Virus genome (UHGV): UHGV-0043900
Length of the DNA stretch: 39,203 nucleotides
Origin: a virus
Direction: 5' to 3' (one strand)
Each line of letters starts with the position of its first letter. The first letter of the stretch is position 1. The notes under the pieces were generated by a model. It was not told the origin of the DNA. It was given only the letters and a program-made list of their open reading frames with translations, and ran no database searches. Below, piece by piece: positions 50-39,153 of the stretch. The position numbers and the translations under genes are program-made.

Positions 50-2344
50 TCATAAAACCGTTTCATCCTTTGTGACGGACTCGTCGTTCTGAGCATCTTC
101 CACGTCTGCCGTAAATGCGCCGTCCACTGCCGACAACCGAATCCGGGCAACCGCCGTATTCGCCGCCATTTTCTGCAACAGCAGCAGGGAGAGCGGCGGC
201 AGCATATTGCCGTCGATGACCGATTCCAGCATCCTCGCGCCGTTTTCCGCGCGGGTGACGCGGCTCATGATTTCGTCCGTCACTTCCGGTTCTATAATCA
301 CCTCCGCGCCAAAGCGGCTGCGCAGCACGTTATCCAGGCGGGCCAGTTTCCCGGCAATGATGGTGGCGAGCGTCTCTTTCGACAGCGGCAGGTACGGCAC
401 CACTTCCATACGCGCCAGCAGGGCAGGTTTGAAGAAGTCGGCCAGCACCGGATACAGTACTTCCTGCATGGTTTCCGGGTCATCGGCATGCTCGACTATT
501 ACCTGGTAGCCGAGGTTGGACGTCAGGAAGAAGACGATATTTTTGCAGTCAATCAGGCGGCCTTCACCGTCTGCCATTTCGCCCTTATCGAACGCCTGGT
601 AGAACAGGTTGAGCACATCCGGGTGCGCTTTTTCCACTTCATCGAGCAGTACTACCGAGTAGGGTTTCTGGCGAATCGCTTCGGTCAGTACGCCGCCTTC
701 ACCGTAGCCAACGTAGCCCGGAGGCGAACCAATCAGTCGCGAGACGGTATGTTTCTCCTGGAACTCGGACATATTGATGGTGGTCAGGTACTGGCGACCG
801 CCGTAGAGCAGCTCTGCCAGTTGCAGGACGGTTTCAGTTTTACCCACGCCGCTGGGGCCAGCCAGCAGGAACGCGCCCAGCGGGCGTCCCGGACGGCGCA
901 GGTCGGCGCGTGCGGTCAGCAGGTGTTTGTGCAGGCTGGCAATCGCCAGGTCCTGGCCTTTGATGGTGTCGCCGAGCCATTTTGGCAGGTCGGTGATGAC
1001 CGACATTTCATTCTGCGACAGGCGGTTAAGCGGCACGCCGGTCCATTCGGCAATCACCGCCGCAATCTGTTTTTTATCGACGTGCGGGGAAACCAGCAAC
1101 CGGTCGTTATGCAGGGCGTCCAGTTCGGCAGTGAGATGTGCCAGACGTTGTACCGGGGAAACTGTTTCAGCGGTCTCTTCCGGCTGTTCTCTGTCGGCCT
1201 CATCAGCCGGTACGGCACCGGTATTATCCTGTTCTGACTCTGACTCTGGCTGCGTATCCTCCACGGTATCTGCGTCCGGCAACGGCGCCGCATCGTCCTC
1301 TGCCACGCCCAGTAACTGCTGGCGCAGCGCAATAATCTCCCGGACCAGCGTCTGCTGCTGGTGCCAGGCCGCTTCCAGTTCATCCAGCGCCGTCAGCGTT
1401 TCATCATACTGCACCAGCACCTCGGTCATCCGTGATGTGTCGGTACGCAGTCCGATGCGAAGCTCGCGCTCAAGCTGGCGAATTTCCGCCTCCTGCTGGT
1501 GGCTCAGAGTGGTCAGCGCCGAGATTTGCTTCGGCGGCGACGACAGGTTGATGGCCACACGGGCGCAGGCGGTATCCAGCACATCAATCGCTTTGTCCGG
1601 TAACTGACGCCCGGAGAGATAACGCTCGCTTAATGTCGCAGCGGCCTGCAAGGCGTCATCATCAATCAGCACGCCGTGAGACTGTTCATAGACCGCCGAC
1701 AGACCGCGCAGAATAATGGTGGCTTCGGCAGCGTTGGGTTCGCTGACCTTCACCAACTGGAAGCGGCGCGACAGGGCGGCATCTTTTTCGAAGTATTTTT
1801 TGTACTCGCTCCAGGTGGTGGCGGCGATGGTTTTCAGCTCGCCGCGCGCCAGCGCCGGTTTGAGCAGGTTGGAGATATCCAGCCCGCCCTGCTGGTTGCC
1901 CGCGCCAATCAGGGTATGTGCTTCGTCGATAAACAGAATGACCGGCACCGGGGAGGAAATGACCTCCGCCATCAGCCCTTTGAAACGTTTTTCGAATTCA
2001 CCCTTCACCGACGCCCCGGCCTGCAATGCGCCCAGGTCAAGGGTCATGATATCGGTGTTTTTCAGCTTGTCCGGCACCTGGCCTGCCACGATGCGCAGCG
2101 CCAGCCCTTCAATCAGTGCGCTTTTGCCCACGCCCGCTTCGCCCACCACCACCGGGTTGTTTTTACGGCGGCGGCAGAGAATGTCGATCATCAGGTCGAT
2201 TTCGTGGTCGCGGCACAGTACCGGGTCAAGCCTGCCGTTACGGGCGTCTGCGGTCATGTTTTTGGCATAGCGGGCAAGCAGGGTGTCAGAGGCGTCCGTC
2301 ATTGTGCCTGCGCCTTTACCGTCTGCATCCGGCTGATCAGACAT
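50..2344 (-). pseudogene. tssH: T6SS AAA+ ATPase ClpV/TssH, C-terminal ~760 codons; gene split by prophage insertion (host sequence ends ~2333)
   Basis: 764-aa ORF with two AAA+ modules (Walker A GEAGVGKS and GPSGVGKT) and ClpV-type motif FYQAFDKGEMADGEGR. It lacks the Clp N-domain, which lies at 38666-39153 on the same strand. First codons ATG-TCT-GAT are supplied by the prophage left end, with no obvious RBS. Confidence 0.85.
2328..2333. repeat. Target-site duplication, left copy (TCCGGC; 5 or 6 bp, ambiguous by one base)
   Basis: TCCGGC immediately precedes the TG terminus and recurs immediately after the CA terminus at 38666-38671. Both copies sit in the same clpV codon phase (CCG GAT). 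Confidence 0.5.
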
Positions 2345-2379
2345 GAGATAAATGAAGGGGGATCCGTGAGATAAATAAC
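2334..2379 (+). repeat. Prophage left terminal sequence with two putative transposase-binding sites
   Basis: TGATCAGACAT followed by GAGATAAAT at 2345-2353 and GAGATAAATAAC at 2368-2379, 23 bp apart. The right end carries the same arrangement in inverted orientation. Confidence 0.6.
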
Positions 2380-2456
2380 GAATTGGAGTGGGTTAACATG
2401 GGTTCTGGTGAACAGAACTGAAATTCTTTTTCGCTATACGATAGATAAGTCGGACA

Positions 2457-2486
2457 TTGAAATCATCCTTTCTGGCAACTTAGAAT
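2457..2486 (+). promoter_or_regulatory. Candidate sigma70-type promoter reading inward from the left end
   Basis: TTGAAA, 18-bp spacer, TAGAAT, about 45 nt upstream of the 2530 ATG. By-eye match only. Confidence 0.3.
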
Positions 2487-2529
2487 CGAGTTTGCTGAAA
2501 CATGACCCGTAACAAAAAGGATGATTCCA

Positions 2530-2691
2530 ATGACTACTCAAAACAATAAGCATGACAGCCTTGATTACTCAGAAAGGCCCAAAAGCAAGCACATCGTGAC
2601 GTTCGAGCGCGATTCCGGTAGAAAAGGAGAATCGTCTTCCTCTGCCAATAAAACCACTATGCCGGCAGCCCCTGCTCCAGGGAAAAAATAA
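2530..2691 (+). CDS. Small hydrophilic protein (53 aa), unknown function; below the ORF-track size cut-off
   Basis: ATG at 2530 preceded by AAGGA at a 9-nt spacing and a candidate promoter. Ends 3 nt from the stop of the convergent 2695-3327 gene. No recognisable motif. Confidence 0.3.
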   Translation: MTTQNNKHDSLDYSERPKSKHIVTFERDSGRKGESSSSANKTTMPAAPAPGKK

Positions 2692-2694
2692 ACA

Positions 2695-3327
2695 TCATTC
2701 ATCGTTCGTTGCACGAACGCGCCTGATCTCCACTCTGGCAATCTGATCTGCTGGAATATAGGTTGCCAGAGCTCCCCAGTACTTATCAACCACGCCTTTA
2801 TACTCTTCCCATTCGTTACTGCCTGAAGGGCTGCTGTGCGTGACGTAAAGAACCATATCGCCTTTATTCCCCAGGGTAAACGGACCGTTAGGCCACTCTT
2901 CAAAGTTCCCTGGCAGTCGTGACATCATACCGGAACCATCGCGAAGAATCACTCTGACCTCGGTAACGCTGAAGCCTGTTTGATCAAACATTGCCTGCCA
3001 TGCTGAGCTGGTATCGTCAGACCATGAAATATCATTATTCCACAGTAATCTGTACATCCATTTGCGACCGTACCTGCGCCACCACGCACCGCATGTAACG
3101 GCACACAGAAGTGCTGGTGGTGTTGCCAGCCAGGCATTCAGACCTGCCCACATAACTGCCTGGTAAGCCATCATTGCTGTCAGGCCAAAAATCAGCGAAG
3201 AAAAAGTCACCTCAATGGGCTTGTGGTGATCCTTCAGTCCCACATTCGCAATAAAATACCCAATATAGCCACTGGTCAGGGTCACCAGTGTTGCCCATGG
3301 CAGATTTAACAACGAAACGTCAAACAT
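2695..3327 (-). CDS. Membrane protein (three predicted TM helices plus ~110-aa soluble C-terminal domain), unknown function; last gene of the early arm
   Basis: ORF 2695-3405 with start reassigned to the ATG at 3327 (MFDVSLL...), preceded by AGGGAG. Hydrophobic segments LPWATLVTLTSGYIGYFIANVGL, IEVTFSSLIFGLTAMMAYQAVMWAGL and WLATPPALLCAVTCGAWW. No family recognised. Confidence 0.6.
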   Translation of the reverse strand: MFDVSLLNLPWATLVTLTSGYIGYFIANVGLKDHHKPIEVTFSSLIFGLTAMMAYQAVMWAGLNAWLATPPALLCAVTCGAWWRRYGRKWMYRLLWNNDISWSDDTSSAWQAMFDQTGFSVTEVRVILRDGSGMMSRLPGNFEEWPNGPFTLGNKGDMVLYVTHSSPSGSNEWEEYKGVVDKYWGALATYIPADQIARVEIRRVRATNDE

Positions 3328-3441
3328 ATTTTCTCCCTGCATCCTGAATACTAAAGAAAGAGCATAAAAAAAGCACGGTAAGGGGTCTACCGTGCTTTTA
3401 TACAATAAAGAGATTTTTGAAAGGACTTTAACAAGCAGGAA

Positions 3442-3840
3442 TTATCTGGATTTGTTAACGTCTTTCGTCTCCTCTGGCAGATCTTCATCAAACAACCTGC
3501 CCTGCATCCGATCCAGTTCTTCTTTTCTGACCCGCTTAACCACGCTGTAGACCCACTGAAGCGAAACACCAAACTTGCGGGCCAGTTCGTGGTGGTTGCG
3601 TCCGTTAAACTCCCTGAAGATTTCCCGGTCGCGCTGACTGACCTTCCATACCATGCCCATCGGGAAATAAACGTTTTGCCCGCCCCAGACCTGCATCATT
3701 CGGTTCGCGACGGCCTGACCAATCTGGTCGGCAATTGCGGGCTCAATATCAATAATCTCGCGAACGGTCTCAGAGGTATGCTGTGCCAGTTCCACCAGGA
3801 GTTCCGGCCCTTTACTTCGAAACTGATTCAGGTCGCTCAT
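3442..3840 (-). CDS. mor: Mor/C-family transcriptional activator (middle/late gene activator)
   Basis: 132 aa; C-terminal HTH region REIFREFNGRNHHELARKFGVSLQWVYSVVKRVR matches the Mor pattern; sits directly after the GemA-like gene as in Mu. Confidence 0.7.
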   Translation of the reverse strand: MSDLNQFRSKGPELLVELAQHTSETVREIIDIEPAIADQIGQAVANRMMQVWGGQNVYFPMGMVWKVSQRDREIFREFNGRNHHELARKFGVSLQWVYSVVKRVRKEELDRMQGRLFDEDLPEETKDVNKSR

Positions 3841-4264
3841 GTTTTACTCCCGCAGCTCTGCGCTGCCACTTCTTCAGTTTCTCAATAACACTGCTTGCCT
3901 GTTCAGTACTGAGCCAGCGCAGGGCGCTGATGCCCGTTTCCCGCTTGATCCACCGCGCTAATGCATTTTCTGAACGGTCACGAACAATGCCGGCAGCAGC
4001 CATTTCAAGCCATAGCGCACGGATTTTCCTGGACTGCGGATGGTTATCCAGCTGTAAACCGGAGCTGGCTTTTCCGGCAGGCTTAACGCGAAAGCCTTTC
4101 CTTTTCATGGATTCCAGCACGCAGTTTAGTTGTGTGGTATCCATTCCTTTGGTTGAGGCTTTACCGGTCAGCCCCTCTAACATCTGGCGGTAGGTGTCTT
4201 CATCCATACCCAGTTCATTACGGGCAATATGAATGAGCTGGATAAGACGTTGTTTAGTCATCAT
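3812..4264 (-). CDS. gemA: GemA-like protein (Mu gp16 / DUF1018 family)
   Basis: Motifs LIQLIHIARNELGMDEDTYRQML, KIRALWLEMAAAGIVRD and ALRWL...IEKLKKW typical of Mu gp16. Start set at ATG-ATG 4264 with AAAGGAG RBS. Confidence 0.75.
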   Translation of the reverse strand: MMTKQRLIQLIHIARNELGMDEDTYRQMLEGLTGKASTKGMDTTQLNCVLESMKRKGFRVKPAGKASSGLQLDNHPQSRKIRALWLEMAAAGIVRDRSENALARWIKRETGISALRWLSTEQASSVIEKLKKWQRRAAGVKHERPESVSK

Positions 4265-4469
4265 CGTTGCTCCTTTTACCTGCGCCACCGATATAATCGA
4301 CATATAAAGGAAGCGCCACAGGCCAGCACAGGAACATCACCGACCAGCTAATCCAGTAGCCGGCACCACTGTAACGTGAATAAAACCCTGAACGGCGCTG
4401 CAGTTCAGCAGTACACCAACCGACAAAACAATACCAGAACAGGGCACATACAACAGATTCAGCCGTCAT
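4254..4469 (-). CDS. Small membrane protein (~71 aa), unknown function
   Basis: Internal start of ORF 4254-4625 (MTAESVVCALFWYCFVGW...); two hydrophobic segments; short overlap with the upstream gene. Confidence 0.4.
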   Translation of the reverse strand: MTAESVVCALFWYCFVGWCTAELQRRSGFYSRYSGAGYWISWSVMFLCWPVALPLYVDYIGGAGKRSNDDD

Positions 4470-4689
4470 TCTGAATATCCCCCCAACTGATATGAATATT
4501 ACGGGCAGCAATGACTGGGTCGTTATTCCACCATGCACCTGACATATATTTTTCAACCTGTTCGCGTCCGGCAATAACACCAATTGTGATCCCCGGCCTG
4601 ACGTTCTTAAAAAAGGCGCGGGCAAAAAGGTATCTGGCAGATATTCGGCAGGCTTTTAATTTCCGGCTGTTACCTGATAACGTCATCAT
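4459..4689 (-). CDS. Hypothetical early protein (76 aa)
   Basis: ORF in the early operon with start overlapping the stop of the upstream gene (ATGA at 4686-4689). Confidence 0.4.
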   Translation of the reverse strand: MMTLSGNSRKLKACRISARYLFARAFFKNVRPGITIGVIAGREQVEKYMSGAWWNNDPVIAARNIHISWGDIQNDG

Positions 4690-5369
4690 CTGGCCTCCAG
4701 TTTCTGCTGTTCCCGCCCACTGACCGGTCGGTGCAGTCTGACGTTCTGCCCTTCTCGAAACCCCGCATAGCGCGAGGTGTCGCCATTGCGACTTCTTCCC
4801 GGTTTACGCGCCCTGGTGGTTTGCGTCTGCGGGTATTTATGTTCCAGCCACTGCTGCATCAGTTCACGTTCGTCATCGGTCAGGGCGAAGGACTGTATTT
4901 CACTGATAACGGCCAGCACCCAGCCTTCAGCAAACTGGTCTCCACGGCTGGTGCGGGTGGCGGTTTTTATTCTTTTGTTCTGTGTACTGATATACTGCTG
5001 ACGCGCCTTTTTCAGCTGACGGGCCAGCACTTCCCAGGTGTACGCAGCCAGTGCGGCCCGTTCCCGGTTGCCGTAGAACCCCACACCCGGATATGTGCCG
5101 GGGTGAATGATGGAGTTAACACCAAATGCCTCGCGGATGATGTTCATCAGGCCCAGCATGTAGCGCGGCGGACGGAGGCTGCCTGTCGGCCAGTAGTGAC
5201 TGATGGTTTCATCAATATCACTCATGGCGATGTCGGAATGTGTGATGCCGTGAACATCCATCAGTTTACGGGCGCGGCGCAGTGCCAGAGCAGCCTCATG
5301 CGGGTTGCCGGATGCTGCCAGCGCCAGCAACTTTTTCAGTTTCTCAATGTGCTTATCCTGGTCTGTCAT
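4686..5369 (-). CDS. Early protein with DUF2786-like N-terminus
   Basis: 227 aa; N-terminus KHIEKLKKLLALAASGNPHEAALALRRARKLMDVHGIT resembles the DUF2786 helical motif common in phage early regions. Recalled family, not searched. Confidence 0.5.
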   Translation of the reverse strand: MTDQDKHIEKLKKLLALAASGNPHEAALALRRARKLMDVHGITHSDIAMSDIDETISHYWPTGSLRPPRYMLGLMNIIREAFGVNSIIHPGTYPGVGFYGNRERAALAAYTWEVLARQLKKARQQYISTQNKRIKTATRTSRGDQFAEGWVLAVISEIQSFALTDDERELMQQWLEHKYPQTQTTRARKPGRSRNGDTSRYAGFREGQNVRLHRPVSGREQQKLEAR

Positions 5370-5566
5370 TGTTCAGTATCTCCGGTATTTTTTTGCTGTT
5401 CCCATGCCCGAACAGCGTCGGACAGCTCTTTCAGGCTGTATGCTGCTTTAAGCTTTACCCACAACCACTGCGTCACCACGTGGGTCAGCAGGGCAACCAG
5501 GGCGAATCCGGCGCAGATGCACACGGCTATACCAGTAAGCAGGAAAGCCCATACCACAATTTCCAT
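5366..5566 (-). CDS. Small single-pass membrane protein (~66 aa)
   Basis: Internal start of ORF 5366-5803 (MEIVVWAFLLTGIAVCICAGFALVALL...); the long upstream extension of that ORF overlaps the neighbouring gene in another frame. Confidence 0.4.
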   Translation of the reverse strand: MEIVVWAFLLTGIAVCICAGFALVALLTHVVTQWLWVKLKAAYSLKELSDAVRAWEQQKNTGDTEQ

Positions 5567-5573
5567 AATGGTG

Positions 5574-5957
5574 TCAGTCACCGGTACCTCCTGTGGTGGT
5601 CTGGTCAGGTGCGGCGTGTGTCCTGTGGTATTTCCTGAACCAGTGGTACAGGGCAGCCAGTTTTCTGTCGATAACTTCAGTTTCCCTGTTGAAGTATTCC
5701 TGTGCCTCTTTCTCCTCTTGCGGCGGCAGTTCGCCCGGCCCACACAGGGTGTTGTAAATCCACGCCATGCCGTTCCTGGCATCACCGGTGGCCCGCCACT
5801 CAATCACTGCAGCTTTCATGACAACCAGATTGCGCCCGAAGTACAGGTCCACCTCTTCAAATCTCTTGCGCAGGTATTCGTTTTCGTCTTCCAGTACCCG
5901 AATACGCTGTGCAACATCTTCAGGCGTCAGTTGTGGCGTCTGTTCAGTGCAGTTCAT
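5574..5957 (-). CDS. Hypothetical early protein (127 aa), predicted helical
   Basis: ORF in early operon; start overlaps the stop of the upstream gene. Confidence 0.5.
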   Translation of the reverse strand: MNCTEQTPQLTPEDVAQRIRVLEDENEYLRKRFEEVDLYFGRNLVVMKAAVIEWRATGDARNGMAWIYNTLCGPGELPPQEEKEAQEYFNRETEVIDRKLAALYHWFRKYHRTHAAPDQTTTGGTGD

Positions 5958-6256
5958 ATGATTTCTCCGGTGTATGTGACGCCCAGCCGTGCGGCAAGGC
6001 GTTCCAGTTTTTTCTGTTTGTGGAAGTCAATCAGTCGGTCCATCCCCTGAAGGCGCAACTGCTCTGTCATGATTTCCACGTCTGCCAGTTCTGCCGCGAG
6101 GTCACTTTCGCTGCCCTGTCCGTTCAGGTTGCGGGCAGCACAGGCTGCCAGTTCAGCGGCCTCTTCTGTCAGTTTCAGTGACTGTGCATCCGGCCCGAAA
6201 CGCTGCAGGGCCAGACGATAGAGGGCGGTGCGTGTGCGTATGGTGTTACGTGTCAT
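5954..6256 (-). CDS. Possible MazG-like nucleotide pyrophosphohydrolase (small all-helical NTP-PPase fold)
   Basis: 100 aa with pattern LKLTEEAAELAACAARN...SDLAAELADVEIMTEQL resembling the EExxE...ExxD...D metal-binding helices of MazG-like proteins. Motif-level only. Confidence 0.45.
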   Translation of the reverse strand: MTRNTIRTRTALYRLALQRFGPDAQSLKLTEEAAELAACAARNLNGQGSESDLAAELADVEIMTEQLRLQGMDRLIDFHKQKKLERLAARLGVTYTGEII

Positions 6257-6265
6257 GCCGCGCCC

Positions 6266-6538
6266 TCAGTGCTTCCGATCGACGGTGATGTTCAGGTTGC
6301 CTTCTGCAGTGGTTTCCATCCGGTACGGCACTTCGTGCTGTGCCGTATGGGTGAGTGTGTTCACCAGTACCTGCAGGGCAGCCTCCTTTCCGTTGGTCGC
6401 CACAATGGCCTGAGCGGCCATGCTGATTAGCGCCGTCAGGACGTGCTTCACATCAGTGAGGTCGCGGCATTCACACTCGTTGACATAGTGTTCAACAAGG
6501 AGTCGGGTGCGCTGTCGTGCTTCCTGTGGGGTAATCAT
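6266..6538 (-). CDS. Hypothetical early protein (90 aa)
   Basis: ORF in early operon with 4-nt start/stop overlap with the upstream gene. Confidence 0.5.
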   Translation of the reverse strand: MITPQEARQRTRLLVEHYVNECECRDLTDVKHVLTALISMAAQAIVATNGKEAALQVLVNTLTHTAQHEVPYRMETTAEGNLNITVDRKH

Positions 6539-6729
6539 TGCGCGTCCTCCCTGTCAGGGCGGGAGAATTCCATGACGGGCACGTCCGCCGAAAAATGCTG
6601 GCTGCAGTACGGACAGACCAGGGTGACACGTACTGCAGGTACGTGGTACTTACCGGACATCACGGCGATGGCGCTGTGAAAACGCAGGGCTGTTATATCC
6701 CTCTCGCACTGAATACATTTAAATATCAT
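6535..6729 (-). CDS. Small zinc-ribbon protein (CxxC...CxxC)
   Basis: 64 aa with Cys pairs C5/C8 and C39/C42 (KCIQCERD ... CPYCSQHF). Confidence 0.45.
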   Translation of the reverse strand: MIFKCIQCERDITALRFHSAIAVMSGKYHVPAVRVTLVCPYCSQHFSADVPVMEFSRPDREDAQ

Positions 6730-6826
6730 GATTTAATTCTCCTCTGTTTCCGGCGTGCAGAAGCCCACGGCGCTGACGCCGGAATAAAAAAGAAAATGTT
6801 TTTATTAAATAATTAACGTGGTGTGT

Positions 6827-7357: not shown

Positions 7358-7384
7358 ATTTTATGACTCCTCCTGTTGTGCTGA

Positions 7385-7654
7385 TTACCACAGAGATTCC
7401 GGCCACACGACGCGACAGCCGTGCAGTTCGAAAACGCCCTGACGGAAATGTCCCCTGTGGTCATGACCGGTATACAGATAACTGGCTTTCCCCTGCTCAA
7501 GCATGCGCATGCAATGCGCACTCCTGGAAACGCGAATGACAGGTTTGTTACCCCTGATGGTGATGCTTTGTACATCCGTGTTCGTCGCCTTAAGCGCCAT
7601 AATGGCTGACAGCACTTTGCTGATTTGCTGGTTGATACCTGTGGTGGATTTCAT
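7385..7654 (-). CDS. Hypothetical early protein (89 aa) directly downstream of B
   Basis: ORF with AAGGGG RBS; occupies the position of kil-type genes in Mu-like phages. No motif recognised. Confidence 0.5.
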   Translation of the reverse strand: MKSTTGINQQISKVLSAIMALKATNTDVQSITIRGNKPVIRVSRSAHCMRMLEQGKASYLYTGHDHRGHFRQGVFELHGCRVVWPESLW

Positions 7655-7656
7655 TA

Positions 7657-8823: not shown

Positions 8824-8833
8824 GTTTTCCTCC

Positions 8834-28909: not shown

Positions 28910-28916
28910 TATCACA

Positions 28917-31984: not shown

Positions 31985-32868
31985 TGTTTGCCGTACTGGG
32001 TGATATTGAGTTTGAACTGATTACCTACTGGGACGGCTTCGAGGCCACGTTCGGCGTCGATTATGCGGAGCATGCCCGCATCGAGGGTAAACCCGGCCTG
32101 CAGTTCGTCGGCGACAGGCTGGACGAAATCCAGATAAGTCTGATCTTCCATCAGCATTATTGTGTGCCCGACGTGGAGCTGGCGAGACTGCGAACAGCCA
32201 TGAAGGCCCATCAGGCACTGGCGCTGGTTTTCGGCAACGGTGACTATCGCGGCTGGTTCGTGATTACCGATGTGACCGCAACCAGCGAGCAGACAGACAG
32301 CACCGGTAACGTGCTGGCTGTCAGTGCCACCGTGTCTCTCCGGGAATACACCGGTGACCCCAAAAATCCTCTGCAACCGCCGGCAATACGCAGGCAGGTT
32401 CCCGGAGCCGGGGCCGTATCTGGTGCTGTTCCATCGCCTTCCGGGGTGGCTCAGTTCGTCCGTAACGGTGTCAACTATGCGAAACAGGCGCAGTCTGTAC
32501 TCCAGACTACCATCAGTGCCGTTCGGGTGGCGCAGAAAATGAAAGGTAACCCCGTTGTCGCGCTGACCCGTGTGCCGGGACTGATGAGCGGACTGGGTAA
32601 TATATCCGGATCTCTGGGGAAAAGTATTCCGGCATTTAATGCTCTCTCTGAATCCATGCCCGATGCCATCAGTCTGGCCAGAACAGCCAGCGAAGCAGTC
32701 ATGTGTGTACAGCAGGCGCAGTCGGCGCTGAGTGGTGTGGACAAAAGAAATATTGCAGGTGCTCTGGATACCGTTTCCGGGCAGCTTAACGCTGCCGGCA
32801 CCGCATTCAACCGCATGTCTCCGGGATTAAGTGCAATGGCCGCCAGAATACTGACGAGGAGTGTGTGA
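31984..32868 (+). CDS. Tail/baseplate protein (Mu N 'DNA circulation' / P2 gpU-like position)
   Basis: 294 aa immediately after the tape measure with ATGA overlap. Confidence 0.55.
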   Translation: MFAVLGDIEFELITYWDGFEATFGVDYAEHARIEGKPGLQFVGDRLDEIQISLIFHQHYCVPDVELARLRTAMKAHQALALVFGNGDYRGWFVITDVTATSEQTDSTGNVLAVSATVSLREYTGDPKNPLQPPAIRRQVPGAGAVSGAVPSPSGVAQFVRNGVNYAKQAQSVLQTTISAVRVAQKMKGNPVVALTRVPGLMSGLGNISGSLGKSIPAFNALSESMPDAISLARTASEAVMCVQQAQSALSGVDKRNIAGALDTVSGQLNAAGTAFNRMSPGLSAMAARILTRSV

Positions 32869-33080
32869 TGTTTCTTGAACATATTACCTGTGACGGAGAG
32901 CGCTGGGATTCGCTGGCATGGCAGTACTACGGTGACCCGTTGGGCTATCCCCGGATTATTGCCGCCAATCCGCACGTGGCCATTACGCCAGTGCTGCCCT
33001 CCGGGTTGTTGTTACTGATCCCGGTTATTGAGGCTGAAGATGCCCGTACAGAAGAGGATATTGCCCCATGGCTGAGATAA
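32865..33080 (+). CDS. Tail protein X-like (LysM-like small tail protein)
   Basis: 71 aa; DSLAWQYYGDPLGYPRIIAANP resembles the P2 gpX motif. Confidence 0.6.
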   Translation: MMFLEHITCDGERWDSLAWQYYGDPLGYPRIIAANPHVAITPVLPSGLLLLIPVIEAEDARTEEDIAPWLR

Positions 33081-34222
33081 AGAGCACTTCGCAAGGCGCA
33101 TCAGCGTTAACCGGCGTCAGTGATGTGCTGACACCGGTATTCACTCTGTGGTATCTGCAGAAAAACATCACCTCAGATATCGCGCCTTATGTTACCCGTG
33201 TGACCTGGAGCGATAACATCAAAAATGAGTCCGATACCATCGAGGTGGAGCTGGACGATACCGATGGTCGCTGGCTGGATAAGTGGTATCCGGGTAAGGG
33301 TGATACTCTGACGCTGAAAATGGGCTATCAGGGCGAGAAACTGCTGTCCTGCGGTACATTTTCAATAGACGAGATCGAAGTGAGTTCGCCCGCGTCCGTT
33401 GTCGCTATCCGTGGGGTGGCCACCTCGGTTAACAGTGCTCTGCGGACTAAATCCAGCCGTGGTTTTGAGAACACCACGCTGGCGGCTGTTGCGGGGCGGA
33501 TTGCCAGAAAGCACCGGCTGAAACTGGTGGGCAGCATTGAGTCCATCAAAATCGACCGGGTGACCCAGTATGCTGAAACCGACGTGGGTTTTCTGCGCCG
33601 GCTGGCCAGCGAGTATGGTTATGCAGTGAAAGTTGTCAGTGACCAGCTGATTTTTTCTCATCTGGCCACACTGCGCAGTCAGGAGCCGGTCAGGCAGTTA
33701 AAACCGCAGGATGTGGCCCGCTTTTCCCTGCGTGACACCATCAACCGGGTCTATAAATCTGCAAAGGTAAAACACCAGAAAAGCAGCAGTAAAAAACTGA
33801 TCGTCTACGAAGCTGATGGTGGTACCCGTGAAAGCGACAAAAAGCTCAAAGGTGGTAAGGTTACCAGCGCTGACTCACTTAAAGTTAACAGCCGTGTCAG
33901 CGACCCGGACAGTGCCCGGATTAAAGCGGATTCAGCACTGGCCAGATATAACGAATACCAGCAGAACGGCTCCCTGACGCTGACGGGAACGCCTCAACTG
34001 ACAGCAGGCAACAAAATTGAACTGGTGGGCTTTGGACAGTTATCCGGTCCATGGCTGATAATTACTGCCCGCCATGCGTTTGAGCGTAACAGCGGCTACA
34101 CCACAGAGCTGGAAGTGGCACGGGGGCCAGTCACAAGAGGGAAAAAACAAAAAACTCAGAAACTCACGGTTTATCACCCGGATGGCAGTACATCGACGGT
34201 GATTAAGGAGAAGAAAAAATGA
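33068..34222 (+). CDS. Baseplate hub protein (Mu P / P2 gpD 'late control D' family)
   Basis: 384 aa, size and position after X; basic Lys-rich C-terminal tail. Confidence 0.8.
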   Translation: MAEIKSTSQGASALTGVSDVLTPVFTLWYLQKNITSDIAPYVTRVTWSDNIKNESDTIEVELDDTDGRWLDKWYPGKGDTLTLKMGYQGEKLLSCGTFSIDEIEVSSPASVVAIRGVATSVNSALRTKSSRGFENTTLAAVAGRIARKHRLKLVGSIESIKIDRVTQYAETDVGFLRRLASEYGYAVKVVSDQLIFSHLATLRSQEPVRQLKPQDVARFSLRDTINRVYKSAKVKHQKSSSKKLIVYEADGGTRESDKKLKGGKVTSADSLKVNSRVSDPDSARIKADSALARYNEYQQNGSLTLTGTPQLTAGNKIELVGFGQLSGPWLIITARHAFERNSGYTTELEVARGPVTRGKKQKTQKLTVYHPDGSTSTVIKEKKK

Positions 34223-34731
34223 CTGGTGTCACCCGTCAGGTCGGTACGGTCAGTGCCGTTGATGCAGACAGGGTTCAGGCCCGCGTGCGTCTGCCTGAAT
34301 GCGATAACCTGCGCACAAACTGGCTTAACGTGCTGCAGCACAATACCCAGGATAATAAGGATTACTGGCTCCCTGACGTGGGGGAACAAGTTGAGGTGTT
34401 GCTCGATGCTAACGGCGAGGATGGTGTTATACTGGGCGCGGTGTACTCAGACGTCGATAAACCACCGTTCAGTGATAAAAACGTCCGGGGCACGAAATAC
34501 GCTGATGGCGCGGAGTTCAGTTATAACCGCGCGACCCATACGCTGACAGTCAAAGGCGGTATTGAGCATGTGGTGATCGAGGTTGCAGTGGATATCAGCC
34601 TGAAAGGGAAAACTATTGTTCTGACCGCTGACACCACCACTGTAAATGGCAACCTTGAAATTAACGGCAATGCCCACTCGACAGGCAGTATGTTGTCAGA
34701 TGGCCAGAACTCTAATCATCACTCGCACTGA
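34219..34731 (+). CDS. Baseplate spike / assembly protein V-like (Mu gp45)
   Basis: 170 aa; N-terminal OB-like region (GTVSAVDADRVQARVRL...QVEVLLDANGEDGVILGAVYS) typical of gpV spikes. Confidence 0.7.
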   Translation: MTGVTRQVGTVSAVDADRVQARVRLPECDNLRTNWLNVLQHNTQDNKDYWLPDVGEQVEVLLDANGEDGVILGAVYSDVDKPPFSDKNVRGTKYADGAEFSYNRATHTLTVKGGIEHVVIEVAVDISLKGKTIVLTADTTTVNGNLEINGNAHSTGSMLSDGQNSNHHSH

Positions 34732-34786
34732 AGTTTCTTAAACGCCTTTAATATCGGCGTTCCCTTCCGGGGGCAATACTGCTCCT

Positions 34787-35134
34787 ATGAAAACGACCTC
34801 AGTATTCTGGCAACCAGCTCTGCAGGCTCCCGGCGAAATCGTCCGGGGGCTGGATGATATCCGGCAGTCCATCCAGATCATCCTGCGGACTCCCCGCGGC
34901 AGCGACCCGCATCGCCCGGAGTTCGGCAGCAATCTGCACCTTTATATCGACTGGCCTGTCGACCGGGCCATTCCGCATGTGGTTCGCGAATCCGTCGATG
35001 CCATCAGGCGCTGGGAACCCCGCTGCCAGCTTATGTCGGTTAAACCCGCCGTCGACGGCGAACATCTTACGCTCCGGGTGAGCTGGAAAGGCTCAGACGG
35101 ACAACCCCGTACTCAGGAACTGCTATGGCGCTGA
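34787..35134 (+). CDS. Baseplate wedge protein (gpW / T4 gp25-like, lysozyme-like fold)
   Basis: 115 aa with the GPW/gp25 motif GSDPHRPEFGSNLHLYIDWPVD. Confidence 0.7.
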   Translation: MKTTSVFWQPALQAPGEIVRGLDDIRQSIQIILRTPRGSDPHRPEFGSNLHLYIDWPVDRAIPHVVRESVDAIRRWEPRCQLMSVKPAVDGEHLTLRVSWKGSDGQPRTQELLWR

Positions 35135-36228
35135 CAGAACCCGATTTTATTGAACGCGATGCCGATAAAATCACGGCAGAAATGATTGCGAAATATGAGG
35201 CAGATACCGGAAAAAAGCTGTATCCGGCGCAGGCAGAACGTCTGTTGATCGACCTGTGGGCCTATCGTGAAACCCTGGTCAGGGTGGCGGTACAGGAAGC
35301 GGCGAAGCTGAATCTGGTCGCCTTTTCCCGCGAGCCGATGATTGACTACCTCGGTGAACTGGTTGGTGTGTACCGCCTTGCCGCGCAGCCTGCCACCACC
35401 ACACTTCAGTTTTCCTTGGATGAGGCACTGGCCATTGATGTGCTGATCCCGGCAGGCACCCGTGTCAGCGCTTCCGACAGTGTTATTTTTGCCACCAATA
35501 CAGATGTGGTGCTGAAGGCCGGATTGCAACTGGTCAATGCCCCGGCCACCTGTACCGAGCCGGGTACCTCTGGCAACGGCTGGCAACCTGCGCAGGTCAG
35601 TCAGTTGCTTGATGAGATTGATAATGTTGACCTGCTGGTGACCAATCTGACGGCCAGTTCTGGTGGTTCAGAGCAGGAAGACAATGACCGACTCCGGGAG
35701 CGTATCAGGCTGGCCCCGGAGTCCTTCACCAATGCCGGAAGCCGTGGTGCATACCGTTTTCATGCTATGGGCGCGCATCCCAGCATTGTCGACGTCGCCG
35801 TGCTATCCCCGGTTCCTGGCACTGTCGAGCTGTATCCGCTGCTCAGTACTGGTCTGCCAGACAGCAGTATCCTCACTCTGGTAGAGAGTTTCTGTTCTGA
35901 CGAAAAAGTCAGGCCGCTCACTGATACCGTGCGGGCGAAAACACCTGTTCAAGTGGATTACACTATTGAAGCCAGGATTACGATCTATCGTGATCAGGAT
36001 GCCAACTCGGTAAAGGATAACGCTAACAGTGCCATACAGAACTGGGTGGCTTCTCGTACTGCCACGCTGGGGCGCGATATTGTTCCCAGCCAGATTATCA
36101 GTGTGCTGTCCGTTTCCGGGGTGTACCAGGTTGAACTGGTGACACCGACACTACGGGTGCTGGCAGAAAACGAATGGGCAAACTGTACGGCGATCACTCT
36201 TAACATGACCGGAGTGTCCGATGACTGA
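35125..36228 (+). CDS. Baseplate J-like protein (Mu gp47)
   Basis: 367 aa following gpW with overlapping start. Confidence 0.8.
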   Translation: MALTEPDFIERDADKITAEMIAKYEADTGKKLYPAQAERLLIDLWAYRETLVRVAVQEAAKLNLVAFSREPMIDYLGELVGVYRLAAQPATTTLQFSLDEALAIDVLIPAGTRVSASDSVIFATNTDVVLKAGLQLVNAPATCTEPGTSGNGWQPAQVSQLLDEIDNVDLLVTNLTASSGGSEQEDNDRLRERIRLAPESFTNAGSRGAYRFHAMGAHPSIVDVAVLSPVPGTVELYPLLSTGLPDSSILTLVESFCSDEKVRPLTDTVRAKTPVQVDYTIEARITIYRDQDANSVKDNANSAIQNWVASRTATLGRDIVPSQIISVLSVSGVYQVELVTPTLRVLAENEWANCTAITLNMTGVSDD

Positions 36229-36802
36229 GCCGTTACAACTCCCGCCACCGCTTGAGGGTGATATCAGTCTCAGAACACTGGGAAGACTGGCCGGGCGGCT
36301 GGATAACATTGACCTGAGCGTACTGATGGTCTGTCTCGTCGATATCGTCGACAGTTCCGCGCTGCCATGGTTGGGCGAGCAGTTCTCACTGTTCGGTGAT
36401 GGCTGGGAGCTTGCTGAATCGGACGATGTTCGTCGCATGCTTATCAAATCTGCTATCGAGCTGCACCGCTACAAAGGAACGCCGTGGTCAGTCAGAGAGA
36501 TTATTCGGCGTTTCGGTTTTGGGGAGGTAGACATAATCGAAGGCCTGGGGGGATTACATTATAACGGCCAAAGACAGTTCAATGGGTATTGCCTTTATGG
36601 TGACGAAAGTTCCTGGGCTATATACAGAGTAATATTACAGAGGCCAATAACTAATGACCAGGCAACATTATTACGCCGTGTACTTTCATTTTTTGCCCCC
36701 GCGCGATGCCATCTTATTAGCCTTGATTATCAGTCTGTACCCGTTCGTTATAACGCAGAAGCCTGTTATGACAGTAATTATAATTATGGGAGTCATCAGT
36801 AA
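36221..36802 (+). CDS. Tail protein I-like (Mu gp48 / P2 gpI)
   Basis: 193 aa; between baseplate J and the tail fibre gene. Confidence 0.65.
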   Translation: MTEPLQLPPPLEGDISLRTLGRLAGRLDNIDLSVLMVCLVDIVDSSALPWLGEQFSLFGDGWELAESDDVRRMLIKSAIELHRYKGTPWSVREIIRRFGFGEVDIIEGLGGLHYNGQRQFNGYCLYGDESSWAIYRVILQRPITNDQATLLRRVLSFFAPARCHLISLDYQSVPVRYNAEACYDSNYNYGSHQ

Positions 36803-37794
36803 TGGCGAAACTAAATGAATCTGCTGTCTGGGAAGACGGCATTTACCAGCTTGAAGTTTCTGATCCAGTTTTGGGTGGTCCAGGGGGGATTGCAAACCGA
36901 CAGGCTGAACAACTGGCAAACAGAACAGCATATTTAAAAAAGAAAGCTGAACGTCAGGATAAGGGACTGGAGGACCATCAAAAAGCATCTGATCCACATA
37001 CCCAGTATGCCCACAAAGAATCTCCGGCGTTTAGCGGCACCCCGACTGCACCAACTGCGGATAAAGCGGATAACAGCAATAAGCTGGCCACGACAAAATT
37101 TGTAAAAGGGGCAATCGCTGATCTGCAGTCAAAATTAGATAATAACCAGCCCGTTGACTGCTATACAAAAGCCGAATCAGATACCAGGTATCCGGATTCA
37201 GGAAGTGTTGCATACCTGACGAAAAGTACAATTCAGCGTTTTCAGGGAAGTATTGAAGTCAGGGATATTTTCAGTATCTACACATTAAATGATGTAAACG
37301 GTCTCAGGCTCGAACCGGGACTAAAAAATAACATTGGACTGAAACGCAGGGGAAAATGGACTTATTACAGCTTCCCGGATAAGGATGGGGAACTGGCATT
37401 AAAATCTGATTTAACTTCGCTTCTGGACGGTCTGGACATATATCCTGTGGGAGCACCACTTCCCTGGCCATTAGCCACACCGCCATCGGGTTACTTAATC
37501 TGTAACGGACAACGATTTAACCCGTCCACCTACCCCGGGCTGGCTTCTGCCTATCCAGGTGGTGTCCTGCCGGATTTGCGCGGTGAATTTATTCGTGGCT
37601 GGGATAATGGTCGTGGTGTGGATACAGGAAGACGCATCCTCAGTCAGCAATTCGGCAATACCCCAGTTATGGATTATGAATATCCAGTAGGCAGTGGTTT
37701 TTCGGTAACGATTCGCACTGTAGGAAATGATGAAGGTGCAAATGAAACGCGTCCGCGAAATATCGCTTTTTTATATATCGTGAGGGCTAAATAA
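36802..37794 (+). CDS. Tail fibre protein with C-terminal phage 'tail collar' domain
   Basis: 330 aa; C-terminal motif YLICNGQRFNPSTYPGLASAYPGGVLPDLRGEFIRGWDNGRGVDTGR matches the Tail_Collar consensus. Lower GC than the core tail genes. Confidence 0.75.
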   Translation: MAKLNESAVWEDGIYQLEVSDPVLGGPGGIANRQAEQLANRTAYLKKKAERQDKGLEDHQKASDPHTQYAHKESPAFSGTPTAPTADKADNSNKLATTKFVKGAIADLQSKLDNNQPVDCYTKAESDTRYPDSGSVAYLTKSTIQRFQGSIEVRDIFSIYTLNDVNGLRLEPGLKNNIGLKRRGKWTYYSFPDKDGELALKSDLTSLLDGLDIYPVGAPLPWPLATPPSGYLICNGQRFNPSTYPGLASAYPGGVLPDLRGEFIRGWDNGRGVDTGRRILSQQFGNTPVMDYEYPVGSGFSVTIRTVGNDEGANETRPRNIAFLYIVRAK

Positions 37795-38414
37795 TGCAAA
37801 AATATAACGTCAATATTCAGGAAGGAAAAATTGGTGAGAACGGTCTGGCCAGCGTGGCCGGATGGGTTAAGTGCTACCTTGCTAATCCTGTAACACGCGA
37901 ATACATGGGGTCCACCATGGAATATGTCATGTTCGATGTGTCCCTGTCAGAAGGTGCATATCTGGATGAACCTCAGTTACCAGTAAAAGCCAGTCAGGCG
38001 GTTCGACGCACGGAAGATGGAACAGCCTGGGAAATTGTCGACGATTATCGTGGGATGGAAGCCTTTAATACACAAACCAGAGAGTCCGTAACCATTAATT
38101 TTATTGGTCCGTTGCCCGAAATATTAACAATGCACAAACCCACAAGCGAATTTGACAGATGGGATGGCCATCGCTGGGTGGAGGACAAAGAAGCAGCCAG
38201 AAAAGCCAGGATTGATGCTGTCAGAAAACACAAAGCAGTGTTATCAGAAGAAGCGGAAACACGCATCGCTCAGCTTGAGCGAAAAGTTCGTCTGGAACTT
38301 GCATCAGATGAAGAAAAAGAACTGCTTAAAGCGTGGGAGATCTACACAATAAGACTTAGTGACGTTAATCCAGAAATAAACCAGGACATCGAATTCCCTC
38401 AGAAACCTGAATAG
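37794..38414 (+). CDS. Tail fibre assembly chaperone (Tfa-like)
   Basis: 206 aa immediately downstream of the tail fibre; C-terminus (KAWEIYTIRLSDVNPEINQDIEFPQKP) typical of Tfa proteins. Confidence 0.75.
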   Translation: MQKYNVNIQEGKIGENGLASVAGWVKCYLANPVTREYMGSTMEYVMFDVSLSEGAYLDEPQLPVKASQAVRRTEDGTAWEIVDDYRGMEAFNTQTRESVTINFIGPLPEILTMHKPTSEFDRWDGHRWVEDKEAARKARIDAVRKHKAVLSEEAETRIAQLERKVRLELASDEEKELLKAWEIYTIRLSDVNPEINQDIEFPQKPE

Positions 38415-38428
38415 TTATCTACAATTAC

Positions 38429-38480
38429 GGCCTGTACTCATGATGGCGGTAAAATCCATGAGTACAGGCTGGTGTATGTC
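38429..38480 (+). terminator. Hairpin terminator at the end of the late operon
   Basis: 13-bp perfect stem GGCCTGTACTCAT/ATGAGTACAGGCC with ~15-nt loop, followed by a moderately T-rich tract. Confidence 0.4.
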
Positions 38481-38623
38481 TGAATATATGCATTTCTGTT
38501 ACAGGTTAGTTGATACAAAAGAATAACATGGATATTTACAAGTGATGAGGCCAGGGTTAAGGTTTGAAGCTATTGTGTAAAATTGCAATTCTTTTTCAAT
38601 ATCCGTAACGTAAAGCTTGTTCC

Positions 38624-38665
38624 ATTTATCTCGCTTTTTTGTGTTATTTATCTCGCGCCGCATCA
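38624..38665 (-). repeat. Prophage right terminal sequence with two putative transposase-binding sites (inverted relative to left end)
   Basis: Reverse complement reads TGATGCGGCGC-GAGATAAATAAC-N10-GAGATAAATGG. First site is 11 bp from the terminus, as at the left end; sites are 22 bp apart. Confidence 0.6.
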
Positions 38666-39153
38666 TCCGGCACGACTGATTCCGCCGACTCCTGTGTCCA
38701 CTGCACAAAGTCCTGTTGCAGACGGTCACGGTTAATGCCGGTCAACAGCCGGGCGGCAGCAGGCGGTATATAACGCAGCGGCGAATGCAGCAGGGCCAGC
38801 AGCAACACGCCGCCGCGCAGTTCGCTGTGCTGCATCTCAGCCGACGCCAGCAGCCAGCCCTCTTTAAGCCACTCAACCAGCATCGGGGAAAACGCCGGGT
38901 AGCTGTCCGCAGAACGGGCGGTTGTGTAGTTCTCTACCGTCAGCGCCTGGCGCAACTCTTCCATGCCAATATCGCCCTGGCGGGTAATAACCCGCAGGTC
39001 ACTGCGTGGCATGGCGAGCATCTGAATGAGCACATGGCTGACGGTAATTTCCGCTGCCTGCTGACTCATACATTCAGAGGCGGCCATCTCCAGCGCCTGG
39101 CGGGAGAACAGGTTCAGCCGTTTTACCAGCGTGGGAAGATCAATCTGGATCAT
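38644..39153 (-). pseudogene. tssH: ClpV/TssH N-terminal fragment (Clp N-domain); host part 38666-39153, ORF runs ~22 nt into the prophage right end before a stop
   Basis: 169-aa ORF with strong RBS (AAGGA) and a Clp_N-like sequence (LNLFSRQALEMAASECMSQQAAEITVSHVLIQML...GGVLLLALL). Joining 39153..38672 to 2333..50 in silico gives one continuous frame (...ESAESVVPDADGKGAG...). Confidence 0.8.
38666..38671. repeat. Target-site duplication, right copy (TCCGGC)
   Basis: Direct repeat of 2328-2333 abutting the prophage CA-3' terminus. Confidence 0.5.

What the first reader, a model, noticed from the sequence alone, without database searches (positions are those of the whole stretch)
2328..38671. 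T6SS ATPase gene clpV/tssH is split in two by a 36.3 kb transposable prophage
The Clp N-domain (38666-39153) and the two AAA+ modules (50-2333) lie on the same strand 36 kb apart. Deleting 2334-38665 plus one TCCGGC copy restores a continuous frame (...ESAESVVPDADGKGAG...). ClpV recycles the contracted T6SS sheath, so this strain probably carries a prophage-inactivated T6SS. The phage left end supplies an in-frame ATG (ATG TCT GAT CAG), so an N-domain-less ClpV could in principle be made, though no RBS is visible.
Basis: partly seen in the sequence, partly recalled or inferred. Interest (0 to 1): 0.8.

Follow-up and report, generated by a model that had tools for sequence, protein, structure and literature searches.

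The report
Mu-like prophage splits E. coli tssH
A 36.3 kb transposing (BcepMu-type, Mu-like) prophage has landed inside the E. coli type VI secretion ATPase gene tssH/clpV and cut it in two; this is a real but ordinary case of gene knockout by a transposable phage.

Summary
A 36,332-bp element (2334-38665) with TG...CA ends sits between two copies of TCCGGC (2328-2333, 38666-38671). Removing it and one repeat copy gives 2,865 nt colinear with the tssH region of E. coli O103:H2 12009, with 2 mismatches and no gap. The restored 921-aa protein matches the TssH model TIGR03345 end to end. The empty site is 100% identical in many complete E. coli genomes. None of 5,426 complete genomes has this junction, but both junctions appear in an independent short-read assembly (SRR12695069).

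The element is a BcepMu-like transposable prophage (Bcepmuvirus), not Mu proper. Its rve/DDE transposase is 68.5% identical to BcepMu gp09. It has an AAA+ transposition protein, Gam, Mor and GemA, and an inverted early arm. 34 of 47 BcepMu proteins match colinearly.

Related copies lie in adeP (3 mismatches over the full length), phnP and wcaJ, each with its own 6-bp duplication.

The likely consequence (inferred) is loss of ClpV function plus polarity on vasI-tssA-tssM. The matching SRA contig also has a private tssK frameshift.

The event is ordinary: a new insertion of a known phage kind.

The parts
1..53 (-). 5' end of vasI, the gene downstream of tssH. Its ATG (53-51) overlaps the tssH stop codon (52-50).
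   Evidence: Sequence. RefSeq annotation of intact loci shows vasI overlapping tssH by 4 nt.
50..2333 (-). tssH/clpV 3' fragment: native codons 162-921, with both AAA+ modules and the stop codon.
   Evidence: TIGR03345 profile positions 161-851, 1022.8 bits. Pfam AAA, AAA_lid_9, AAA_2 and ClpB_D2-small are recorded for the same protein.
2328..2333 (.). Left copy of the 6-bp target-site duplication, TCCGGC.
   Evidence: The empty site with a single copy is 100% identical in complete genomes.
2334..38665 (.). BcepMu-like transposable prophage, 36,332 bp, with TG...CA termini.
   Evidence: A copy with 3 mismatches lies in adeP of strain IGC_RcoliRes_1.1.
2334..2376 (+). Phage left end: TG terminus plus two exact GAGATAAAT repeats (2345-2353, 2368-2376), presumed transposase-binding sites. 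It contains the outward-facing ATG (2344-2342, minus strand) that opens the 764-aa fusion ORF.
   Evidence: All four exact copies in the window lie at the two ends. BcepMu ends have the same geometry.
2695..3327 (-). 210-aa protein of unknown function (phrog_12870). It is the last phage gene before the left end and is transcribed toward the tssH 3' fragment.
   Evidence: PGAP annotation of the near-identical prophage. Gene call in the Logan contig.
3369..3399 (-). Terminator-like hairpin (13-bp stem, T-run) just downstream of mor.
   Evidence: This is a consensus scan only.
3442..3840 (-). Mor-family middle/late transcription activator.
   Evidence: Pfam Mor, E 1.1e-43. 56% identical to BcepMu gp01.
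3812..4261 (-). GemA/gp16-family protein.
   Evidence: 46% identical to BcepMu gp02. PGAP and Pfam GemA annotations.
6827..7357 (-). Mu Gam-like DNA-end protection protein.
   Evidence: Pfam Phage_Mu_Gam, E 5.6e-41.
7657..8823 (-). AAA+ DNA transposition protein (MuB analogue, ExeA family).
   Evidence: AAA_22, E 3e-20. phrog_296. 58% identical to BcepMu gp08.
8834..10603 (-). DDE (rve) transposase, 589 aa.
   Evidence: Pfam rve. phrog_310, E 3e-147. 68.5% identical to BcepMu gp09 and 56% to B3. No Mu or D108 match.
11890..12078 (-). Small HTH DNA-binding protein at the head of the leftward early operon.
   Evidence: phrog_925. 46% identical to BcepMu gp16.
12059..12517 (+). HTH_3 (cI/Cro-type) putative lysogeny repressor, divergent from the early operon.
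   Evidence: Pfam HTH_3. Same position as the BcepMu gp17 repressor. PGAP coordinates.
12634..13398 (-). D12-class DNA adenine methylase.
   Evidence: Pfam MethyltransfD12, E 2.9e-27. PGAP annotation.
15693..38414 (+). Lysis, head and contractile-tail module. It comprises holin, SLT endolysin, TerS/TerL (18057-20119), portal (20119-21615), F and G, protease and major head protein (23093-25176), sheath and tube (26677-28625), tape measure (29519-31984), a P2-like baseplate, tail fibre (36802-37794) and fibre assembly protein (37794-38414).
   Evidence: Colinear tblastn matches to BcepMu gp21-gp52. PGAP names on the near-identical prophage.
38624..38665 (-). Phage right end: two inverted GAGATAAAT repeats (38646-38654, 38624-38632) and the CA terminus. 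It supplies the 6 extra codons and the stop codon that end the N fragment.
38666..38671 (.). Right copy of the 6-bp target-site duplication, TCCGGC.
38666..39153 (-). tssH/clpV 5' fragment: native codons 1-163, which is the complete ClpV N domain.
   Evidence: TIGR03345 profile positions 4-151. Match to chain 3ZRI, E 7.6e-35, over residues 2-159; I recall 3ZRI as the V. cholerae ClpV N domain, though its record names it 'ClpB protein'.
39162..39203 (-). 3' end of tssL (annotated icmH/dotU), the gene upstream of tssH.
   Evidence: Coordinates mapped from the O103:H2 annotation. Gene order also seen in the Logan contig.

Best explanation
A BcepMu-type transposable temperate phage integrated by DDE-transposase strand transfer into the linker codons between the N domain and the first AAA+ module of tssH. 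The gene lies in the yafT-linked E. coli T6SS cluster that I take to be T6SS-1. The staggered 6-bp cut was repaired into the TCCGGC duplication.

The gene is now two pieces. The first is a free ClpV N domain (163 native plus 6 phage-coded residues), still behind the T6SS operon promoter. The second is an N-domain-less AAA+ body 36 kb away, with only a phage-supplied ATG and no ribosome-binding site.

What is shown: the insertion, its precise boundaries, the phage family, and the mobility of this phage to other loci.

What is inferred: ClpV-dependent sheath recycling is lost, and transcription of the co-oriented downstream genes (vasI, tssA, tssM, vasL, hcp) is cut off from the operon promoter. 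This T6SS is therefore crippled and is unlikely to revert, because Mu-type prophages rarely excise precisely.
For: - Precise junctions and a 6-bp duplication.
- The empty site is 100% identical in complete genomes.
- The joined flanks are colinear with O103:H2 tssH, with 2 mismatches in 2,865 nt.
- The joined protein scores 1123.7 bits on TIGR03345 (cutoff 885), and the fragments cover complementary profile ranges.
- Both junctions are present in an independent short-read assembly, SRR12695069 contigs 63 and 10.
- Phage identity: rve transposase 68.5% identical to BcepMu gp09. AAA+ transposition protein, Gam, Mor, HTH repressor and Dam are present. 34 of 47 BcepMu proteins match colinearly. 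The ends have TG...CA and repeated GAGATAAAT, like BcepMu ends.
- Mobility: the same prophage (3 mismatches in 36,332 bp) lies in adeP with duplication GCTGCA. Relatives lie in phnP with CCTCGC and in wcaJ with CATAGC. The family is in 640 of 5,426 complete E. coli genomes.
- Operon context: every gene from tssB through tssH to hcp is on one strand.
- The ClpV N domain determines TssC recognition (PMC5048182).
Against: - No expression or secretion data exist for this strain.
- In EAEC Sci-1, a delta-clpV strain served as a control for reduced, not absent, T6SS activity (bioRxiv 10.1101/2025.02.08.637259). ClpV loss alone may therefore not abolish secretion.
- Internal promoters could still drive the downstream T6SS genes. 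So could read-out from the phage left arm, which runs in the same direction as tssH with no terminator-like site found between 2695 and 2334 on that strand.
- A second T6SS elsewhere in the genome cannot be excluded from a 39-kb window.
- The tssK frameshift in the matching contig means the prophage may not be the first or the only lesion.
Confidence: 0.93

Rival explanations
1. Assembly artefact: the prophage was mis-joined into tssH by the assembler and the gene is really intact.
For: No complete E. coli genome among 5,426 has this junction.
Against: - A perfect 6-bp duplication sits exactly at TG...CA phage termini.
- Both junctions were recovered in an independent Logan assembly of SRR12695069. 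One 36.8-kb contig runs from T6SS genes across the left junction deep into the phage.
Confidence: 0.01
2. The two pieces are independent paralogue fragments of different Clp/ClpV genes, not halves of one gene.
For: None beyond the 36-kb separation.
Against: - The joined flanks are 100% identical to single intact loci over 1000 nt and colinear over 2,865 nt.
- The fragments cover TIGR03345 positions 4-151 and 161-851 without overlap.
- Complete genomes carry a median of one copy of the 3' fragment sequence (window 1-2333).
Confidence: 0
3. Site-specific integration: tssH is a dedicated attachment site, and the prophage acts as a reversible 'active lysogeny' switch on the T6SS.
For: The insertion falls neatly in the inter-domain linker, and the phage end supplies an in-frame ATG.
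Against: - The prophage encodes no tyrosine or serine integrase.
- The same or related phages sit in adeP, phnP and wcaJ with unrelated 6-bp duplications.
- None of 5,426 complete genomes has this junction in tssH.
- To my knowledge, Mu-type elements rarely excise precisely.
Confidence: 0.02
4. The element is a classical Mu (Muvirus) prophage.
For: TG...CA ends, Gam, Mor and GemA homologues, and Mu-like head genes.
Against: - The transposase finds BcepMu, phiE255 and B3 relatives but no Mu or D108 record at E<=1e-5. It also finds no MuA structure by sequence.
- The duplication is 6 bp, not Mu's 5 bp.
- The early operon is inverted relative to the late genes, and the tail is P2-like.
Confidence: 0.02

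Closest known systems
Burkholderia phage BcepMu (NC_005882; Bcepmuvirus)
   Same: - Inverted early arm: mor, gemA, AAA+ transposition protein, rve transposase, gp10.
- Divergent HTH repressor.
- Mu-like head genes and a P2-like contractile tail.
- TG...CA ends with a repeated GAGATAWWT-type motif about 12 and 34 nt from each end.
- 34 of 47 proteins match colinearly at 28-77% identity.
   Different: - Different host: E. coli rather than Burkholderia.
- Several early accessory genes of BcepMu (gp03-gp07) have no match here; this prophage has Gam, DUF2786 and Dam there.
- It lacks the gp53 acyltransferase at the right end.
- The tail-fibre C-terminus is different.
Prophage in adeP of E. coli IGC_RcoliRes_1.1 (NZ_CP054662.1); Escherichia phage PhiKM (PQ738613, partial)
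   Same: The IGC prophage is the same phage: 36,332 bp with 3 mismatches, all in the tail-fibre region. PhiKM is 94% identical over 79% of the 10-kb left-arm query, its transposase is 98% identical, and NCBI classifies it in Bcepmuvirus.
   Different: The insertion site differs: adeP with duplication GCTGCA, against tssH with TCCGGC. PhiKM is a partial record without ends.
Escherichia phage Mu
   Same: It works the same way: a temperate phage that integrates by DDE transposition at near-random sites and so mutates host genes. It shares Gam, Mor, GemA and head-morphogenesis homologues and TG...CA ends.
   Different: - The transposase family is unrelated at the sequence level.
- The duplication is 6 bp rather than 5 bp.
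- The early region is inverted.
- This copy has no invertible G segment.
Natural T6SS decay in E. coli and other bacteria (IS insertion in tssM, point mutations in clpV/tssM)
   Same: A core T6SS gene is knocked out by a mobile element or small mutation. The literature describes this as recurrent (bioRxiv 10.1101/2025.02.08.637259, discussion and its references).
   Different: Here the mutagen is a whole 36-kb transposable prophage. No paper describing this particular insertion turned up in my searches.

Membership tests
TssH/ClpV T6SS ATPase (NCBIfam TIGR03345) | Full-length match above the curated cutoff | tested here: met
   The reconstructed 921-aa protein scores 1123.7 bits against a cutoff of 884.95, over profile positions 4-851 of 852.
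TssH/ClpV T6SS ATPase (NCBIfam TIGR03345) | ClpV-type N domain that binds the sheath subunit | tested here: met
   The N fragment matches chain 3ZRI (E 7.6e-35, residues 2-159), which I recall as the V. cholerae ClpV N domain. It also matches 4HH5, which I recall as the EAEC ClpV1 N domain. Binding itself was not tested.
TssH/ClpV T6SS ATPase (NCBIfam TIGR03345) | Encoded inside a T6SS gene cluster | tested here: met
   Intact loci have the order tssK-tssL-tssH-vasI-tssA-tssM. The same neighbours appear in the SRA contigs that carry the insertion.
TssH/ClpV T6SS ATPase (NCBIfam TIGR03345) | Uninterrupted reading frame (a functional gene) | tested here: not met
   The gene is split after codon 163 by 36,332 bp. 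It is a disrupted member of the family.
BcepMu-like transposable phages (Bcepmuvirus) | rve/DDE transposase of the BcepMu (Tn552/IS1604-related) type, with an adjacent AAA+ transposition protein | tested here: met
   68.5% identity to BcepMu gp09. 58% identity to gp08. Pfam rve and AAA_22.
BcepMu-like transposable phages (Bcepmuvirus) | 5'-TG...CA-3' termini with repeated terminal transposase-binding motifs | tested here: met
   PMC2628397 states that BcepMu-related prophages have TG...CA termini.
BcepMu-like transposable phages (Bcepmuvirus) | Genome organisation: early operon inverted relative to the late genes, Mu-like head, P2-like tail | tested here: met
   Colinear matches to 34 of 47 BcepMu proteins with the same strands.
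BcepMu-like transposable phages (Bcepmuvirus) | Insertion at many unrelated sites with a short target duplication | tested here: met
   Four loci (tssH, adeP, phnP, wcaJ), each with a different 6-bp duplication.
BcepMu-like transposable phages (Bcepmuvirus) | Replicative transposition and headful packaging with host DNA flanks | not testable with these tools
   This needs induction and virion DNA sequencing.
Mu proper (Muvirus) | MuA-family transposase | tested here: not met
   No Mu or D108 record among the 69 phage records matched at E<=1e-5. No MuA chain among PDB sequence hits.
Mu proper (Muvirus) | 5-bp target-site duplication | tested here: not met
   The duplication is 6 bp in four of four insertions. 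Mu's 5-bp value is from my own knowledge.

The most novel reading that the evidence does not exclude
The prophage does more than kill the T6SS: it rewires it. Leftward phage transcription runs in the same direction as tssH, and no terminator-like site was found between the last phage gene and the left end. It could read out across the phage-supplied ATG into the tssH 3' fragment and vasI-tssA-tssM. That would place an N-domain-less ClpV and the distal T6SS genes under phage control, while the free ClpV N domain made from the native promoter binds TssC.
Probability: 0.03. Interest if true: 0.5.

Novelty: new member of a known kind. Interest (0 to 1): 0.22.

Why it matters
- For this strain, it predicts a crippled T6SS cluster and hence weaker contact-dependent competition. 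The lesion is essentially irreversible.
- More generally, it documents that BcepMu-type transposable prophages are currently mobile in E. coli. They occur in about 12% of complete genomes, and near-identical copies sit in different genes. They act as insertional mutagens of accessory systems.
- It gives a clean set of four junctions showing a 6-bp duplication for this phage group.
- None of this challenges existing knowledge.

Tried and rejected
- Junction in complete genomes: I searched the left junction against 5,426 complete E. coli genomes and none has it. The event is therefore strain-specific.
- Papers on a Mu-like prophage in clpV: none found.
- Provenance: I looked for the accession names and read the IGC mouse-gut evolution papers, because the near-identical prophage is in their resident strain. 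None mentions T6SS, tssH, adeP or transposable phage. One search was wasted on an over-general term.
- Published BcepMu duplication length: not found in the open-access papers I searched. The 6-bp value rests on my four junction pairs only.
- Automated end-finding: exact-ish terminal 24-mers missed the more divergent relatives. I read those junctions by eye instead.
- Target-site consensus: I considered one (three of four duplications end in GC next to the left end) and dropped it because the sample is far too small.
- Second copy of the phage in the SRA strain: unlikely, because a single contig crosses the left junction and, by my arithmetic from the contig coordinates, runs about 24 kb into the phage.


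Full report
**Observation**

tssH/clpV lies on the minus strand.

- The ORF 38644-39153 encodes 169 aa. Residues 1-163 are native ClpV N domain, and 6 residues plus a stop codon are read from the phage right end.
- The ORF 50-2344 encodes 764 aa. The first four residues (MSDQ) come from the phage left end, and the rest are native residues 162-921.
- Between them lies a 36,332-bp element (2334-38665). It starts with TG, ends with CA, and is flanked on both sides by TCCGGC.
- Removing the element with 0, 3, 6 or 9 extra bases all keep the frame open, so frame restoration alone is weak evidence.

The decisive test is comparison with natural empty sites.

- The 1000-nt reconstruction that keeps a single TCCGGC is 100% identical over its full length in many complete E. 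coli genomes, where it is annotated as intact tssH.
- The whole 2,865-nt joined flank is colinear with E. coli O103:H2 12009, with 2 mismatches and no gap. The resulting 921-aa protein differs from that strain's TssH at one residue.
- The joined protein scores 1123.7 bits on NCBIfam TIGR03345 (cutoff 885), end to end. The two fragments cover profile positions 4-151 and 161-851, so they are complementary halves and not paralogues.
- The N fragment contains the whole ClpV N domain. Its best solved relative is chain 3ZRI (E 7.6e-35), which I recall as the V. cholerae ClpV N domain.

**Is the insertion real?**

None of 5,426 complete E. coli genomes has this junction. However, exact look-ups of both chimeric proteins found them in an independent short-read assembly, Logan SRR12695069.

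- Contig 63 carries tagH-tssJ-tssK-tssL, the N fragment and the phage right end. It is identical to the window over the 907 overlapping bases.
- Contig 10 (36.8 kb) runs from the phage left arm across the left junction into vasI-tssA-tssM.

An assembly artefact is therefore very unlikely. Because one contig crosses the junction and continues far into the phage, that strain probably has a single copy of the phage.

**What the element is**

Pfam and PHROG scans found the following on the minus-strand left arm:

- a 589-aa rve/DDE transposase;
- an adjacent AAA+ 'DNA transposition protein';
- Mu Gam;
- Mor;
- small HTH regulators;
- a D12 Dam methylase.

A divergent HTH_3 repressor candidate lies on the plus strand.

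- The transposase is 68.5% identical to BcepMu gp09, 69% to phiE255 and about 56% to B3. No Mu or D108 record is matched at E<=1e-5, and no MuA chain is found in the PDB by sequence.
- 34 of 47 BcepMu proteins have colinear, same-strand matches at 28-77% identity. These run from mor at the left end through lysis, terminase, portal, head, sheath, tube, tape measure and a P2-like baseplate to the tail fibre.
- The ends resemble BcepMu's. Both have TGA..., and an exact GAGATAAAT occurs twice in each end in inverted orientation, at about nt 12 and 34-35. These are the only four exact copies in the window.
- Published descriptions agree. BcepMu-related prophages carry an Rve-core transposase related to Tn552 and have TG...CA termini (PMC2628397). 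B3-type genomes differ from Mu by inversion of the early operon (PMC5977238).
- NCBI classifies the closest phage record, Escherichia phage PhiKM, in Bcepmuvirus.

The element therefore works like Mu but is a BcepMu-like phage, not a Muvirus.

**Evidence of transposition and current mobility**

The transposase and transposition-protein segment is found in 640 of 5,426 complete E. coli genomes, with up to 3 copies per genome. Known insertions and their duplications are listed below.

| Locus | Strain(s) | Relation to the window's phage | 6-bp duplication |
|---|---|---|---|
| tssH | this window | the phage itself | TCCGGC |
| adeP | IGC_RcoliRes_1.1 (mouse isolate) | full length, 3 mismatches, all in the tail-fibre region | GCTGCA |
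| phnP | 3347558 | relative | CCTCGC |
| wcaJ | AR_0067 and EE72d (same event) | relative | CATAGC |

Four unrelated genes carry four different 6-bp duplications, and the element encodes no site-specific integrase. This is the signature of near-random DDE transposition. It rules out tssH as a dedicated attachment site. The 6-bp duplication differs from Mu's 5 bp. It fits the Tn552 kinship; I recall 6-7 bp for Tn552, but I did not check this here.

**Consequences (inferred)**

- The break is in the linker after the N domain.
- The ClpV N domain is what recognises the N-terminal helix of the cognate TssC. In EAEC the two ClpVs are not interchangeable for that reason (PMC5048182). An N-less ClpV, even if it were made from the phage ATG, should therefore not be recruited to contracted sheaths.
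- The phage ATG at 2344-2342 is real, but the 15 nt upstream (CCTTCATTTATCTC) contain no Shine-Dalgarno-like motif.
- ClpV loss alone may not be a null. In EAEC Sci-1, a delta-clpV strain served as the control for reduced, not absent, activity (bioRxiv 10.1101/2025.02.08.637259).
- Polarity is probably more damaging. In intact loci all genes from tssB through tssK, tssL, tssH, vasI, tssA, tssM and vasL to hcp lie on one strand. The vasI start overlaps the tssH stop. The 36-kb insertion thus separates essential tssA and tssM from the upstream promoter.
- One caveat applies. The phage's left arm is transcribed in the same direction as tssH. The simple scan found a strong terminator-like hairpin after mor (3399-3369), but none between the last phage gene (2695-3327) and the left end. 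Some read-out into tssH' and beyond is therefore conceivable.
Allelic restoration is the right experiment.

**A second lesion**

In the SRA contig that carries the insertion, tssK has a 1-bp deletion (CCAGGACGC to CCAGACGC, about nt 244). This splits it into 110-aa and 333-aa ORFs. No complete genome shares it; the best hits are identical apart from that one-base gap. If it is real, the cluster has two private lesions, and the prophage may have landed in a T6SS that was already dead. This lies outside the window and rests on one short-read assembly.

**Comparison with what is known, and verdict**

Everything here belongs to known kinds.

- The host gene is an ordinary TssH.
- The phage belongs to the known BcepMu group. 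Essentially the same prophage is already in RefSeq at another locus.
- Insertional inactivation is what transposable phages are named for.
- Decay of T6SS genes by mobile elements and small mutations is described as recurrent (bioRxiv 10.1101/2025.02.08.637259).

The particular insertion is not in any complete genome, and no paper I searched describes it. I rate it a new member of a known kind, with low to moderate interest.

Noticed in passing
Outside the window: L005 896-2226 (Logan SRR12695069 contig 63), upstream of window position 39203: tssK in the contig that carries this insertion has a 1-bp deletion (CCAGGACGC to CCAGACGC). This splits it into 110-aa and 333-aa ORFs. No complete E. 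coli genome shares it. It is either a second private T6SS lesion or an assembly error.
   Followed up: partly
window about 1230-1260 (minus strand, TssH linker between the two AAA+ modules): The Glu-Ser dipeptide repeat in the acidic linker varies in length between strains. Strain 07-4299 has 8 extra ES units (48 bp, giving a 937-aa TssH against 921 aa here and in O103:H2).
   Followed up: partly
window 36802-38665, compared with L004 14643-18826 and L010 37511-40916: This prophage ends with a short tail fibre and an assembly gene. It lacks the invertible tail-fibre segment and the Gin-like 'recombinase family protein' that the relatives in phnP and wcaJ carry at their right ends.
   Followed up: partly
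window 2334-38665, compared with NZ_CP054662.1 5205250-5241581 (L008): An essentially identical prophage (3 mismatches, at 37239, 37838 and 37871, all in tail-fibre genes) sits in adeP of a mouse-gut E. coli from Oeiras, Portugal. This implies very recent spread or re-insertion of this phage.
   Followed up: yes
window 2457-2691 (+) and 2695-3327 (-): Two genes of unknown function lie at the extreme left end, beyond the terminator-like hairpin that follows mor. One is a 53-aa ORF with a promoter-like site (TTGAAA-18-TAGAAT). The other is a 210-aa protein (phrog_12870, no Pfam match). Their position suggests moron or lysogenic-conversion cargo.
   Followed up: no
window 5387-5963 and 34219-34731: Two small structural differences from relatives. 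First, a segment of about 577 bp in the early arm is absent from the phnP prophage and includes an ORF that PGAP marks as partial. Second, baseplate V is 84 bp shorter than in the relatives (513 nt against 597 nt), and the difference is in frame.
   Followed up: partly
L010/L011 (AR_0067 and EE72d), wcaJ: A related prophage interrupts the colanic-acid gene wcaJ at the same position in two strains from different sources. It is probably a lineage marker.
   Followed up: no
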